Shown here in pieces: positions 39,112 through 40,651 of a DNA stretch of 64,000 bases. Below the pieces are notes generated by a model, which had not been told where the DNA came from, ran no database searches, and saw nothing but the letters and a program-made list of their open reading frames with translations. Source of the DNA: Patescibacteria group bacterium (lineage in GTDB: Bacteria > Patescibacteriota > Minisyncoccia > Portnoybacterales > UBA2143); NCBI GenBank assembly GCA_018830295.1, contig JAHJSM010000002.1:115131-179130 (forward strand). Reading direction: 5' to 3'. Every line of letters starts with the position of its first letter. The stretch's first letter is position 1. The translations under genes were made by a program, and so were the position numbers.

Positions 39112-40452
39112 ATGATATCTAATCTTAGAAGCCCTATATATGTTCAAATAGAAATAACTTCTAATTGCAACAACAAATGCCTGCACTGCTACAACTTTTG
39201 GCGTTATGACCAAACAAATGAAAGGAAAGAATTGTCTATCTCTGAATGGAAAAAGGTGGCTAAAATTTTGGGAGAAAATGATATTTTCTACGCTACTATC
39301 ACTGGAGGCGAACCATTTGTCGCAAAAGAAAAAACATATAATCTTATGAATTTCTTGCGCGAACAAAACATCCGTATAATGATAAATTCCAATGCTACCT
39401 TAATTAATCAAAACGAAGCGGAAAAACTATCAACATATCCAATAGAAATATTTCTCGTATCCCTAATTTCGTCTAACCCGCGGCAACACAATGAAATTGC
39501 TAATTCAAATCTCGCTTTTCAAAAAACTGTTCAAGGCATTAAAAATCTGCAAAAGGCAAAGATCAATTTAGCAATCAATATGGTTGCGAGTAAAATTAAT
39601 TACCAAAATGTCTACACAACAGGCAAATGGGTTTATGAAAATTTAGGTATTAAAAATTTCAGCGCCACGCCAATTTGCCCATCAGTCCAGGAGCATCAAG
39701 TTCTTGAATTAAACGAAAAAGAAACAATAGACACGCTTGGTCAACTCCTCCAATTAAAGAAAGATTTCGGGCTTAATGTGGATATTTTGGAAGTTTTTCC
39801 AACCTGCCTTTTTGAAAATCTTGAAAATGAAATTGTAGAAACATTCTCAAAAAGAATGTGTACTGCCGGAAATACTACAATAACCATCGGATCCGAAGGC
39901 AATATCAGAGCGTGTTCATACGACCAAAAATCTTATGGCAATATATTAAACGAAAGCTTCAATAACATCTGGAAAAGAATGGAAATTTGGCGGAATAATT
40001 CTTTGCTGCCGCCCGAATGCAATGAGTGTATTATAGCAGATAGTTGCGGAGGAGGATGCCGAGTAAACGCCAAAGTAAAACAAGACGGATATTGCGAACT
40101 TAGCAATTTCTATAAAGGCGCGCTGAAGGAAAAACAGGAAAAATTCTTCAAAGAAACATCCGAGATTCAACTGAACAAAAAGTTATCACTATCTAAAAAT
40201 ATTCTCTTTAGAGAAGAAAAAGAAAACAAATTCGTATTGGTGGCAAATTCCATGCATTTTGTTATAGTAAATGATAAAGGGTTGGAAGTAGTAAAACATT
40301 TAAATACCTTAAGTTCTTTTACACCCTCTGAAATAATTAGCGCGCTGAATTTAGACGTAGAGAAAGACAGGAAGTTTTTCGCAGAACTTTTTCAAAAAGG
40401 ATTCTTGTTAGAACCCGCAACCAAGCCGAAAGGAGGTGGCAAAGATGGTTAA
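39112..40452 (+). CDS. radical SAM / SPASM-domain enzyme with C-terminal PqqD-like (RRE-like) extension
   Basis: CNNKCLHC (CX3CX2C) near N-terminus; C-terminal CNECIIADSCGGGC SPASM-type cysteines; last about 90 aa resemble PqqD; SD AAAGGAGG. Confidence 0.8.
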   Translation: MISNLRSPIYVQIEITSNCNNKCLHCYNFWRYDQTNERKELSISEWKKVAKILGENDIFYATITGGEPFVAKEKTYNLMNFLREQNIRIMINSNATLINQNEAEKLSTYPIEIFLVSLISSNPRQHNEIANSNLAFQKTVQGIKNLQKAKINLAINMVASKINYQNVYTTGKWVYENLGIKNFSATPICPSVQEHQVLELNEKETIDTLGQLLQLKKDFGLNVDILEVFPTCLFENLENEIVETFSKRMCTAGNTTITIGSEGNIRACSYDQKSYGNILNESFNNIWKRMEIWRNNSLLPPECNECIIADSCGGGCRVNAKVKQDGYCELSNFYKGALKEKQEKFFKETSEIQLNKKLSLSKNILFREEKENKFVLVANSMHFVIVNDKGLEVVKHLNTLSSFTPSEIISALNLDVEKDRKFFAELFQKGFLLEPATKPKGGGKDG

Positions 40453-40606
40453 CAAGTTGCTCGCGGAAAAAAAAGGGGCTGACGCAAACACTGGCAGTAA
40501 TGAAATCCAGATGTTTAATTCCGCGCTTCAGCCCACGGAAAGCGGTTCAGATAGCAATTACACCAATTGTTATTGCTACGGACCCGCCTATCCCCCCTGC
40601 AAATAA
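40445..40606 (+). CDS. 53-aa Cys-containing peptide (MVNKLLAEKKGADANTGSNEIQMFNSALQPTESGSDSNYTNCYCYGPAYPPCK), candidate RiPP precursor, translationally coupled to the rSAM gene
   Basis: ATG overlaps the rSAM stop (ATGGTTAA); SD AAAGGAGGTG 6 nt upstream; terminator immediately downstream; missing from the ORF track (below length cutoff). Confidence 0.55.
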   Translation: MVNKLLAEKKGADANTGSNEIQMFNSALQPTESGSDSNYTNCYCYGPAYPPCK

Positions 40607-40616
40607 AAGCAGGAAC

Positions 40617-40651
40617 AAAAAAGGGGTCAAAAATTATTTGATCCCTTTTTC
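40617..40651. terminator. bidirectional terminator AAGGGGTCAAA-AATTA-TTTGATCCCTTTTT
   Basis: 9-bp stem (one G-U) plus T-run between convergent genes. Confidence 0.6.

What the first reader, a model, noticed from the sequence alone, without database searches (positions are those of the whole stretch)
39112..40651. Radical-SAM/SPASM enzyme with an overlapping Cys-containing peptide ORF: candidate RiPP locus
The 446-aa protein has a CX3CX2C radical-SAM motif near its N-terminus and a Cys-rich SPASM-type C-terminal cluster, typical of peptide-modifying maturases. Its last about 90 aa resemble a PqqD-type peptide-recognition domain. A 53-aa ORF (40445-40606) starts at an ATG overlapping the enzyme stop codon (ATGGTTAA). 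AAAGGAGGTG lies 6 nt upstream of it and a terminator hairpin directly follows. The peptide has a hydrophilic leader-like N-terminus and a C-terminal NCYCYGPAYPPCK segment with three Cys, like sactipeptide/ranthipeptide-class substrates. It is below the ORF-track length cutoff and so is unannotated. RiPP loci of this type are poorly described in small-genome/CPR-like bacteria.
Basis: partly seen in the sequence, partly recalled or inferred. Interest (0 to 1): 0.85.

Follow-up and report, generated by a model that had tools for sequence, protein, structure and literature searches.

The report
Conserved radical-SAM peptide cassette in Patescibacteria
A tiny-genome (Patescibacteria) bacterium carries a real three-gene cassette: a 53-residue precursor peptide with an almost invariant Cys/Tyr/Pro-rich tail, a radical-SAM enzyme with a built-in peptide-recognition domain, and a zinc-protease-like protein. 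This looks like an undescribed family of enzymatically cross-linked peptides.

Summary

- **Enzyme.** ORF 39112-40452 is a radical-SAM/SPASM enzyme. It has CX3CX2C, a full SPASM Cys motif and a C-terminal winged-helix domain related to MftB/PqqD.
- **Peptide.** The 53-aa ORF 40445-40606 is a genuine gene.
  - Eleven distinct homologous loci (enzyme identity 45-83%) encode a peptide ending in [N/S]CYC[Y/H]G, in ten of them extended to ...GP[A/S]YPPC. Each has a GGAGG Shine-Dalgarno site and a terminator.
  - All 12 core codons vary synonymously: 299 synonymous against 27 non-synonymous pairwise differences.
- **Third gene.** An HExxH zincin-fold protein (40634-41338, minus strand) is present in every such locus, even where gene order differs.
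- **Wider superfamily.** Homologues of the enzyme and of the HExxH protein flank other Cys-rich peptides across Patescibacteria and some archaeal MAGs.
- **Databases.** No curated peptide, enzyme-equivalog or HExxH family matches. No paper in the held library contains the motif.
- **Mechanism (inferred).** The leader binds the recognition domain. The enzyme makes radical cross-links in the core, most likely Cys thioethers. The zincin removes the leader.

The chemistry and the biological role remain untested. I rate it a new member of a known kind, of moderate to high interest.

The parts
39018..39046 (+). Promoter-like site TTGACA-17-CACAAT upstream of the rSAM gene. This is a consensus match only.
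   Evidence: The number of such sites is not above the shuffled expectation, so the assignment is tentative.
39100..39105 (+). Shine-Dalgarno site AGGAGG, 6 nt before the enzyme's ATG.
39112..40452 (+). Radical-SAM/SPASM peptide maturase, 446 aa, with a fused C-terminal recognition domain.
39166..39189 (+). [quoted passage not shown]
   Evidence: Invariant in 36/36 aligned homologues.
39805..40095 (+). SPASM auxiliary-cluster region: C232, then C250-x12-G263-x4-C268, then C303-x2-C306-x5-C312-x3-C316, then C328.
   Evidence: Seven Cys are invariant in 36/36 sequences. C328 is present in all 20 close-clade sequences.
40174..40407 (+). C-terminal winged-helix domain (about residues 355-432). It is a PqqD/MftB-type RiPP recognition element (RRE).
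40429..40438 (+). Shine-Dalgarno site AAAGGAGGTG of the precursor gene.
   Evidence: An equivalent GAAAGGAGGTG-type site sits upstream of all 11 orthologous peptides.
40445..40564 (+). Leader region of the precursor (residues 1-40). It contains the conserved motif I21-Q-M-F-N-S-A-L28.
   Evidence: The alignment of 11 orthologues shows (Q/K)xF(D/N)xxL and an N-terminal M(V/I)(K/R)xL.
40565..40606 (+). Core peptide N41-C-Y-C-Y-G-P-A-Y-P-P-C-K53, plus the stop codon.
   Evidence: The core [N/S]CYC[Y/H]GP[A/S]YPPC is conserved in 10 loci under purifying selection. L084 carries two NCYCHG units instead.
40618..40650 (.). Bidirectional intrinsic-terminator hairpin shared by the convergent genes. An A-run and a T-run flank a GGGGTCAAA/TTTGATCCC stem. 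The stop codon of the HExxH gene lies in the loop.
   Evidence: RNAfold -17.3 kcal/mol. Analogous hairpins follow every orthologous peptide gene.
40634..41338 (-). HExxH zincin-fold protein, 234 aa from ATG 41338 (the mechanical ORF starts at TTG 41365). It is a candidate leader peptidase.
40874..40888 (-). HELSH metal-binding motif. E at 40790-40792, on the next-but-one helix, is the candidate third ligand.
   Evidence: In alignment A4, E160, H163 and E191 are invariant and H159 is at least 90% conserved.
41336..41378 (-). Repeat element upstream of the HExxH gene. Read on the minus strand it is a hairpin, then TGGTATAAT (an extended -10 box), then a G-rich stretch, then ATG.
   Evidence: Family D2, four copies at 36017, 37907, 38768 and 41336. 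The sequence was read directly. Its function is inferred.

Best explanation
This is a compact three-gene cassette for a ribosomally synthesised, post-translationally modified peptide.

**Components (shown).**
- The 53-aa precursor has a variable, hydrophilic 40-residue leader and an almost invariant 12-13-residue core, NCYCYGPAYPPC(K).
- The 446-aa enzyme combines a radical-SAM core, a full SPASM domain for two auxiliary [4Fe-4S] clusters, and a C-terminal PqqD/MftB-type recognition domain.
- The third gene, convergent with the other two, encodes a 234-aa HExxH zincin-fold protein.

**Mechanism (inferred steps).**
1. The recognition domain binds the conserved leader motif (I/V)(Q/K)xF(D/N)xxL as an added beta-strand.
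2. Reductive cleavage of SAM yields 5'-deoxyadenosyl radical, which abstracts a hydrogen atom from a core residue.
3. A Cys thiolate held at an auxiliary cluster captures the radical and forms one or more intramolecular thioether bridges. One candidate is Cys44 to Asn41, the N-x-x-C spacing of NxxcA. The hexapeptide N-C-Y-C-(Y/H)-G is the minimal modified unit.
4. The HExxH protein then removes the leader next to the conserved (Y/F)(A/T/S)-N junction.

**My probabilities.**
- An rSAM-modified peptide system: about 0.85.
- The chemistry is thioether formation: about 0.45.
- The HExxH protein is a peptidase: about 0.55.

The biological role is unknown. The invariant core and the lack of a linked transporter argue against a fast-evolving bacteriocin.
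For: **Gene reality and coupling.**
- The SD site, the 8-nt overlap with the enzyme stop and the terminator are all present.
- Orthologous peptides occur in 11 distinct loci.
- All 12 core codons vary synonymously, 299 synonymous against 27 non-synonymous differences.

**Linkage.**
- In L166 the peptide lies upstream of the enzyme with the HExxH gene between them, yet the trio stays together.
- Flanking genes differ among loci.

**Superfamily pattern.**
- 77/148 enzyme loci have a Cys-rich ORF with an SD site just downstream, against 0.8% of control windows.
- HExxH relatives lie next to the enzyme in 55 loci, covering several core types.

**Enzyme.**
- Radical_SAM and SPASM domains score above their cut-offs.
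- The Cys ligands are invariant.
- The nearest folds are the peptide maturases SuiB, SkfB, ChlB and CteB, plus anSME and PqqE.

**Recognition domain.**
- Homologues hit MftB at E 1.9e-8.
- The predicted topology fits.

**Thioether precedent.** NxxcA carries a Cys23-Asn20 C-beta bridge, and SCIFF peptides carry Cys-Asp and Cys-Thr bridges (review PMC8326336).
Against: - No chemistry has been measured.
- All curated maturase models score far below their cut-offs.
- Asn41 is Ser in L166, so the NxxC acceptor is not strictly conserved.
- The window's own C-terminal domain gives no direct PqqD or MftB hit.
- No exporter or immunity gene is conserved.
Confidence: 0.8

Rival explanations
1. It is still an rSAM RiPP system, but the cross-link is not a thioether. 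The enzyme would form Tyr/His-centred C-C or C-O (cyclophane-type) links within C-Y-C-(Y/H)-G. The Cys residues would serve as disulfides or metal ligands. The HExxH protein would be a tailoring oxygenase, like the alpha-ketoglutarate/Fe HEXXH beta-hydroxylases that act after cyclophane formation, rather than a protease.
For: - HEXXH proteins associated with rSAM enzymes hydroxylate Asp and His (PMC12636437). The superfamily cores are rich in Asp, Asn, His and Tyr.
- The second-best curated hit is the Trp-Lys cross-linker WgkB.
- The aromatic at core position 5 is always Tyr or His.
Against: - None of 30 HExxH family members hits the alpha-KG-HEXXH model family at E<=1 in NCBIfam. The correspondence of IPR026337 to TIGR04267 is from my own knowledge.
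- Cys is the one feature shared by all core types across the superfamily.
- An O2- and alpha-ketoglutarate-dependent step fits poorly with the mostly fermentative, TCA-lacking Patescibacteria. This last point is background knowledge, not tested here.
Confidence: 0.25
2. The enzyme acts on a non-peptide or unlinked protein substrate (NirJ/AhbD-type tetrapyrrole chemistry, or anSME-type sulfatase maturation). The small ORF would then be fortuitous or unrelated.
For: - The top NCBIfam hit is NirJ2 (E 2.7e-35) and AhbD is third.
- anSME is the top Foldseek hit.
Against: - Those scores are 98-122 bits against cut-offs of 500.
- The peptide is conserved under purifying selection and stays linked even when gene order changes.
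- The enzyme carries a peptide-recognition-type domain that anSME and NirJ lack.
- The enrichment of Cys-rich ORFs is about 65-fold over controls.
Confidence: 0.03
3. The small Cys-rich product is not a substrate. It would be a metal-binding or Fe-S partner, or a regulator of the enzyme, or an unmodified Cys-rich secreted peptide whose disulfides form spontaneously.
For: - Three Cys and three Tyr in 12 residues could chelate metals.
- No transporter is linked.
Against: - A variable leader with an invariant C-terminal core, a conserved leader motif and an enzyme-fused recognition domain together form the RiPP substrate pattern.
- Related enzymes pair with very different Cys-rich cores, as expected for substrates rather than for a conserved subunit.
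Confidence: 0.05

Closest known systems
Ranthipeptides: SCIFF/PapB, CteB and NxxcA/NxxcB
   Same: - An rSAM/SPASM maturase sits next to a short precursor with a Cys-rich C-terminal core.
- The window core contains an N-x-x-C spacing (N41...C44), like the Asn20-Cys23 C-beta thioether of NxxcA (PMC8326336).
- Sister families have Cys plus Asp/Asn/Glu-rich cores, reminiscent of the Cys-Asp bridges of freyrasin.
   Different: - The peptide hits no SCIFF or other curated precursor model.
- PapB scores 59.5 bits against a cut-off of 340.
- The recognition domain is C-terminal. In the related maturases scanned here that carry one, it is N-terminal.
- A dedicated HExxH protein is conserved alongside.
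- The hosts are Patescibacteria rather than Firmicutes.
Sactipeptide maturases (SkfB, AlbA)
   Same: - SkfB is the only PDB sequence-level hit (E 1.4e-6) and a top fold match.
- AlbA gives E 4.7e-20.
- The substrates are Cys-donor peptides.
   Different: - The scores are far below the family cut-offs.
- The core is only 12-13 residues and lacks the usual arrangement of N-terminal Cys and C-terminal acceptors.
- Domain order differs.
- No C39/ABC exporter is linked.
Mycofactocin system (MftA/B/C/E) and PQQ (PqqA/D/E)
   Same: - The logic is the same: a short precursor with an invariant core, an rSAM/SPASM enzyme, a PqqD-family chaperone and a peptidase, with no exporter.
- The C-terminal domain of family members hits MftB (E 1.9e-8).
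- MftC is hit at E 6e-24 and PqqE at 5.5e-17.
   Different: - Here the chaperone is fused to the C-terminus of the enzyme.
- The core has neither the C-terminal Gly-Val-Tyr nor the Glu-x3-Tyr motif.
- MftC scores 85 bits against a cut-off of 265, and PqqE 62 against 381.
- No dehydrogenase, glycosyltransferase or MftD/PqqB/C-type downstream enzyme is linked.
rSAM/SPASM enzymes fused to HExxH domains (ChlBH/FxsB-type triceptide systems; alpha-KG HEXXH enzymes)
   Same: - An rSAM/SPASM maturase is genetically tied to an HExxH zincin-fold protein.
- The family is described in PMC12636437.
   Different: - The HExxH protein is stand-alone, about 234 aa.
- It does not hit the curated HEXXH-modification family in any of 30 members.
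- The cores here are Cys-based, not the aromatic-X-X cyclophane motifs.
CPR graspetide loci with accessory SPASM maturases and zincin peptidases (Makarova et al. 2022, PMC8939145)
   Same: - That paper reports Candidate Phyla Radiation RiPP loci in which a SPASM maturase and zincin-superfamily peptidases accompany ATP-grasp enzymes.
- One clade locus here, L166, has an MvdD-type ATP-grasp gene and a methyltransferase about 2-3 kb away.
   Different: - No ATP-grasp gene was seen among the genes scanned within about 6 kb either side of the window cassette, nor among the genes called in the other clade loci fetched.
- The precursor here has a Cys/Tyr/Pro core rather than a Thr/Ser-Asp/Glu graspetide core.
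- I could not check whether that paper's families are the same ones.

Membership tests
Radical SAM superfamily (PF04055) | CX3CX2C motif ligating the SAM-binding [4Fe-4S] cluster, and a family HMM score above the cut-off. | tested here: met
   C19-x3-C23-x2-C26 is invariant in 36/36 sequences. Pfam scores 72.1 bits against a cut-off of 29.5. The GGEP motif (G65-G66-E67-P68) is invariant.
SPASM subfamily (PF13186) | C-terminal motif CX9-15GX4C ... CX2CX5CX3C ... C for two auxiliary [4Fe-4S] clusters. | tested here: met
   The motif reads C250-x12-G263-x4-C268, C303-x2-C306-x5-C312-x3-C316 and C328, with an upstream C232. Pfam scores 28.3 bits against 21.5.
RiPP recognition element (PqqD/MftB family) | Winged-helix fold (a three-stranded sheet plus three helices) and similarity to PqqD-family models. 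| tested here: inconclusive
   - The model shows strands at 358-386 followed by helices 388-397, 405-411 and 416-428.
- 6 of 25 homologous domains hit MftB TIGR03967, best E 1.9e-8.
- The window's own domain gives no PqqD or MftB hit.
- The profile search against PDB finds only generic winged-helix proteins.
- Leader binding has not been tested.
Sactipeptides | Cys sulfur to alpha-carbon thioether bridges in the mature peptide. | not testable with these tools
   This needs MS/MS and NMR of the modified peptide. AlbA, SkfB and StsB models score 52-71 bits against cut-offs of 300-850.
Ranthipeptides / SCIFF | Cys sulfur to beta- or gamma-carbon thioethers; a SCIFF-type precursor and a PapB/SCIFF-type maturase. 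| tested here: not met
   The precursor hits no NCBIfam peptide model. PapB NF047865 scores 59.5 bits against 340. The chemical criterion itself cannot be tested here.
NxxcA/NxxcB-type beta-thioether peptides | An Asn-x-x-Cys motif in the core, cross-linked from Cys-S to Asn-C-beta. | tested here: inconclusive
   The N41-C-Y-C44 spacing is present in the window and in 10 of 11 clade peptides, and is Ser in L166. No NxxcB model was available, and the bond cannot be tested.
Mycofactocin (MftC/MftA) | An MftC equivalog score, and a precursor ending in Gly-Val-Tyr. | tested here: not met
   TIGR03962 scores 84.8 bits against a cut-off of 265. The peptide ends in PPCK.
PQQ (PqqE/PqqA) | A PqqE equivalog score, and a precursor with Glu-x3-Tyr. 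| tested here: not met
   TIGR02109 scores 61.7 bits against 381. The core contains no Glu.
Anaerobic sulfatase-maturating enzyme / NirJ-AhbD haem enzymes (non-RiPP SPASM enzymes) | An equivalog-level score to the family model, and no dedicated peptide partner. | tested here: not met
   NirJ2 scores 122.5 bits against 500 and AhbD 97.9 against 500. anSME is not among the 25 best models. A dedicated peptide partner is conserved. anSME is only a fold neighbour.
Zincin metallopeptidases (gluzincin type) | An HExxH motif on a helix, a downstream Glu ligand on a following helix, and the zincin fold. | tested here: met
   - HELSH sits at 40874-40888 with a conserved downstream Glu (E191 in A4 numbering).
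- No Pfam peptidase family reaches its cut-off. The best are M78 at E 0.017 and YgjP-like at 0.1.
- Catalytic activity has not been tested.
Alpha-ketoglutarate-dependent HEXXH oxygenases (IPR026337) | Membership of the curated HEXXH peptide-modification domain family, and Fe/alpha-KG-dependent hydroxylation. | tested here: not met

The most novel reading that the evidence does not exclude
The near-invariant 12-residue Cys/Tyr/Pro core is not an antimicrobial. It would be the precursor of a conserved small functional molecule made with mycofactocin/PQQ-like logic: precursor, rSAM/SPASM enzyme with an MftB-type domain, and a trimming metalloprotease. The product could be a peptide-derived redox cofactor, a metal chelator or a conserved signal. 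It would be used intracellularly, or at the host interface, by ultra-small Patescibacteria. The wider three-gene system (enzyme, Cys-rich peptide, HExxH protein), which spans Patescibacteria and some archaeal MAGs, would then be a lineage-typical peptide-modification pathway whose chemistry may be new.
Probability: 0.15. Interest if true: 0.85.

Novelty: new member of a known kind. Interest (0 to 1): 0.6.

Why it matters
Patescibacteria have tiny genomes with very little known secondary metabolism. One survey in the held library found no biosynthetic clusters in its Patescibacteria MAGs (PMC11613949). [quoted passage not shown]

Here a three-gene cassette is kept in many such genomes, with a peptide core frozen across lineages whose enzymes are only 45% identical. 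That degree of constraint suggests a product with a fixed molecular target or a fixed chemical role.

The system is small enough to test directly: two or three genes co-expressed in E. coli, followed by mass spectrometry. Such a test could reveal:
- a new cross-link pattern in a 6-residue unit (N-C-Y-C-Y/H-G);
- a new stand-alone zincin family dedicated to RiPP processing;
- a lead to how episymbiotic bacteria signal or compete.

The short precursor genes matched no curated peptide model and were rarely found by protein search, so this class could be under-counted.

Tried and rejected
- **Pfam PqqD on the window enzyme and on 25 C-terminal domains.** No PqqD hit, only weak generic winged-helix families.
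- **Profile of the C-terminal domain against PDB sequences.** Only eS25, SelB and Z-alpha type winged helices, at E>=1e-3.
- **hhalign to P0050.** It aligns with that protein's N-terminal PqqD domain, but weakly.
- **Peptide against NCBIfam and Pfam, with nine sister-family peptides against NCBIfam.** Nothing apart from one sub-threshold hit (TIGR04117, a Cys-Xaa-Xaa-Xaa repeat rSAM target, E 0.014) for one sister peptide.
- **Protein-database search with the peptide.** Only two near-identical entries. A 12-residue match cannot reach significance, and small ORFs are rarely called.
- **HExxH protein.** No PDB sequence hit, no Pfam or NCBIfam family. The afdb50 fold library was unavailable.
- **Transporter or second peptidase.** M16 peptidase and ABC genes occur near the cassette in only a few loci and not in the window, so I did not count them as parts.
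- **Alternative substrates.** The two duplicated 63/76-aa ORFs and the 87-aa zinc-ribbon ORF upstream have no counterpart in any homologous locus.
- **Start codons.** I rejected the GTG at 40436 as the peptide start because it lies inside the SD site and all orthologues start at the ATG. I rejected TTG 41365 as the HExxH start in favour of ATG 41338, because the extra N-terminus is a translated repeat element and homologues are 224-242 aa.
- **Literature.** The searches 'CYCYGP' (0 papers), ranthipeptide+Patescibacteria/CPR and SPASM+Patescibacteria found no description of this family.
- **Predicting the chemistry from nearest relatives.** Fold and sequence rankings do not discriminate between chemistries.
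Full report
**1. Observation**

- ORF 39112-40452 (+) encodes 446 aa, with CNNKCLHC at residues 19-26.
- A second ORF starts at ATG 40445, inside ATGGTTAA, which contains the enzyme's TAA stop. It ends at 40606 and encodes MVNKLLAEKKGADANTGSNEIQMFNSALQPTESGSDSNYTNCYCYGPAYPPCK.
- AAAGGAGGTG lies 6 nt upstream of that ATG.
- A 14-bp hairpin (40618-40650; A-run, GGGGTCAAA/TTTGATCCC stem, T-run) follows the stop (RNAfold -17.3 kcal/mol). 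The simple consensus scanner missed it.
- Pfam finds Radical_SAM (72 bits) and SPASM (28 bits), both above their cut-offs.
- The enzyme is identical to MBU2579985.1, 'radical SAM protein [Patescibacteria group bacterium]', on a 745-kb contig. This confirms the small-genome setting.

**2. Is the small ORF a gene?**

Yes. A protein search found 54 enzyme homologues. Scans of genome and metagenome collections, plus exact look-ups, gave 170 loci.

- Every locus whose enzyme is 45-83% identical to the window's, and which has enough flanking DNA, encodes a 50-67-aa peptide. There are 11 distinct loci, counting the window.
- In ten of them the peptide ends in [N/S]CYC[Y/H]GP[A/S]YPPC plus 0-8 residues. 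In L084 it carries two NCYCHG units instead.
- All 11 have a GAAAGGAGGTG-type ribosome-binding site, an ATG start (MV/MI...) and a terminator hairpin after the stop.
- In the 12 core codons every position varies synonymously among 10 loci. Pairwise, 299 codon differences are synonymous and 27 are non-synonymous. This shows purifying selection in this reading frame.
- The leader is much more variable. It keeps an N-terminal M(V/I)(K/R)xL and a central (Q/K)xF(D/N)xxL motif.

**3. The enzyme**

- *Conserved residues.* In an alignment of 36 homologues, the three radical-SAM Cys, the GGEP motif and seven SPASM Cys are invariant (C232, C250, C268, C303, C306, C312, C316). An eighth Cys, C328, is present throughout the close clade. 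The spacing is the canonical SPASM motif.
- *No equivalog.* All curated NCBIfam models score far below their cut-offs: NirJ2 122 bits against 500, WgkB 102 against 650, MftC 85 against 265, AlbA 71 against 850, PapB 59.5 against 340. The enzyme therefore belongs to the SPASM peptide-maturase neighbourhood but to no described equivalog, and its chemistry cannot be read from homology.

**4. The C-terminal domain**

- Residues about 355-432 are predicted as several beta-strands followed by three helices.
- Pfam PqqD does not hit the window protein, nor any of 25 homologous domains.
- A profile search of PDB sequences finds only generic winged-helix proteins.
- However, 6 of the 25 homologous domains hit the NCBIfam model for MftB, the PqqD-family chaperone of mycofactocin, with a best E of 1.9e-8.
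- hhalign places the domain on the N-terminal PqqD domain of a distant rSAM maturase.

I conclude that this is a recognition element of the PqqD/MftB type fused to the C-terminus. In the related maturases scanned here that carry such a domain, it is N-terminal. Leader binding is inferred, not shown.

**5. A third conserved gene**

Convergent with the peptide gene, and sharing its terminator, is ORF 40634-41365 (-).

- *Start codon.* Its real start is most likely ATG 41338, giving 234 aa. The 9 extra N-terminal residues of the mechanical ORF are the translation of a repeat element, and homologues are 224-242 aa.
- *Distribution.* The protein is present in all 13 clade loci that have enough flank. 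In L166 it lies between an upstream peptide gene and the enzyme, so gene order changes but the trio persists. Other neighbours are not conserved.
- *Metal site and family.* It has an HELSH motif and a conserved downstream Glu, but no Pfam or NCBIfam family.
- *Reach of the family.* An exhaustive profile search found only 158 representatives of about 220-250 aa. tblastn with these places a family member within about 2 kb of the enzyme in 55 loci, about 40 of which have quite different peptide cores.

**6. The wider system**

- Enzymes 30-35% identical to the window's are followed by other Cys-rich short ORFs with strong SD sites. They come from many Patescibacteria lineages (MAGs labelled Wolfebacteria, Levybacteria, Kaiserbacteria and Saccharibacteria, among others), from Nanoarchaeota and other archaeal MAGs, and from Omnitrophota.
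- Examples of those cores are ...CQCVSCRQCDNHCNK...CYDCDYNCEECD...GGCDSSGCDVCQSGCEGG... and ...GDCGCFNCDGNPC....
- Under a strict criterion (at least 3 Cys in the last 30 residues, plus an SD site), such an ORF occurs within -60 to +300 nt of the enzyme stop in 77/148 loci. The rate in control windows from the same loci is 28/3497.
- None of ten representative peptides hits a curated NCBIfam peptide family above noise.

**7. Mechanism**

*Shown.*
- A conserved precursor with a variable leader and an invariant core.
- An rSAM/SPASM enzyme with ligands for three clusters and a fused recognition-type domain.
- A linked zincin-fold protein.

*Inferred.*
- The leader docks on the recognition domain.
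- 5'-deoxyadenosyl radical abstracts a hydrogen atom from the core.
- A Cys thiolate bound at an auxiliary cluster captures the radical to form a thioether. The precedents are CteB, SkfB, PapB and NxxcB (review PMC8326336).
- The zincin removes the leader.

*Points bearing on the site of modification.*
- The core has the N-x-x-C spacing of NxxcA (Asn20-Cys23 C-beta thioether).
- The duplicated NCYCHG units of L084 indicate that the hexapeptide is the modified unit.
- Cys is the one feature common to all sister cores.

*Probabilities.* I put thioether chemistry at about 0.45. A Tyr/His-centred C-C or C-O cross-link, possibly with the HExxH protein acting as an oxygenase (as in ChlBH; PMC12636437), is at about 0.25. 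The rest is unknown chemistry. Reading the whole as an rSAM-modified peptide system stands at about 0.8-0.85.

**8. Comparison and novelty**

The layout is that of known rSAM RiPP systems, so this is not a new kind of system. In four respects it is an undescribed family:
- the precursor, whose motif 'CYCYGP' occurs in no paper of the held library and which matches no curated model;
- the enzyme, which reaches no equivalog cut-off;
- the stand-alone HExxH partner family;
- the C-terminal placement of the recognition domain.

One clade locus, L166, does have an ATP-grasp gene nearby. The genes scanned around the window cassette do not include one.

The extreme conservation of the core, and the absence of a linked exporter or immunity gene, resemble cofactor-type systems (mycofactocin, PQQ) more than bacteriocins. 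This is the most novel reading that the evidence does not exclude, at a probability of about 0.15.

**9. Verdict**

- Observation: confirmed.
- Novelty: a new member of a known kind.
- Interest: 0.6. This is a clean, compact and experimentally tractable RiPP family, apparently typical of Patescibacteria, with unknown chemistry and function.

Noticed in passing
window 36122-36326 and 38516-38720 (+): A 205-nt segment is duplicated at 81% identity. Each copy has its own AAAAGGAGG ribosome-binding site and encodes a Cys-free, Gly/Pro-rich small protein of 63 or 76 aa (GDNKPFVPLK.GFGIQPMGPSPLG.GDMHDTFKSD..GNIS.GHTTVRIPGGK..HMPW.PK). There are no Pfam or NCBIfam hits and no counterpart in any homologous locus.
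   Followed up: partly
window 36017-36059, 37907-37949, 38768-38810, 41336-41378: A 43-nt repeat occurs four times within 6 kb. Read on the minus strand, the 37907 and 41336 copies show a short GC hairpin, a T-run, TGGTATAAT (an extended -10 box), a G-rich stretch and then ATG. This looks like a composite terminator/promoter/start module upstream of minus-strand genes. It inflates the mechanical ORFs (spurious '..FWYN..' N-termini at 35708-36070 and 40634-41365).
   Followed up: partly
window 47906-48037 (-) and 57595-57692 (+): Two Rfam 'orphan' structured RNAs score above their gathering thresholds: LOOT RNA (70.9 bits) and DUF3800-V RNA (66.9 bits).
   Followed up: no
window 33830-34696 (-), 41395-42444 (-), 43936-44562 (-): The cassette sits among genes with defence or mobile-element flavour: a Bro-N/AbiJ_NTD4 protein, a protein with an HSDR_N_2 (type I restriction N-terminal) domain, and a UDG-family protein. 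Several other neighbouring ORFs have no Pfam hit. GC content drops from about 0.40 to 0.26-0.35 downstream of 40 kb. This may be a variable island.
   Followed up: no
window 37910-39110: A stretch of about 1.2 kb upstream of the rSAM gene has no ORF longer than 87 aa. It contains pyrimidine-rich tracts (for example 38900-38950, tctccccaaaccccctctaaatc...) and an 87-aa zinc-ribbon-like ORF (38231-38494, CPRC...CKKC) with only sub-threshold Pfam hits.
   Followed up: no
L164 1-3525: In one homologous locus the cassette lies directly downstream of a CBASS-like set: a patatin gene, an SMODS/DncV-like nucleotidyltransferase gene with an AGS_C domain, and small ORFs.
   Followed up: no
L166 1-2846: In another homologous locus an MvdD-type ATP-grasp gene, a methyltransferase and an acetyltransferase lie 1-3 kb from the cassette. 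This echoes the CPR graspetide loci with SPASM maturases reported in PMC8939145.
   Followed up: partly
L084 5365-5568: This variant precursor carries two NCYCHG units separated by 12 residues and lacks the PAYPPC tail. It suggests that the hexapeptide is the modular unit of modification.
   Followed up: partly
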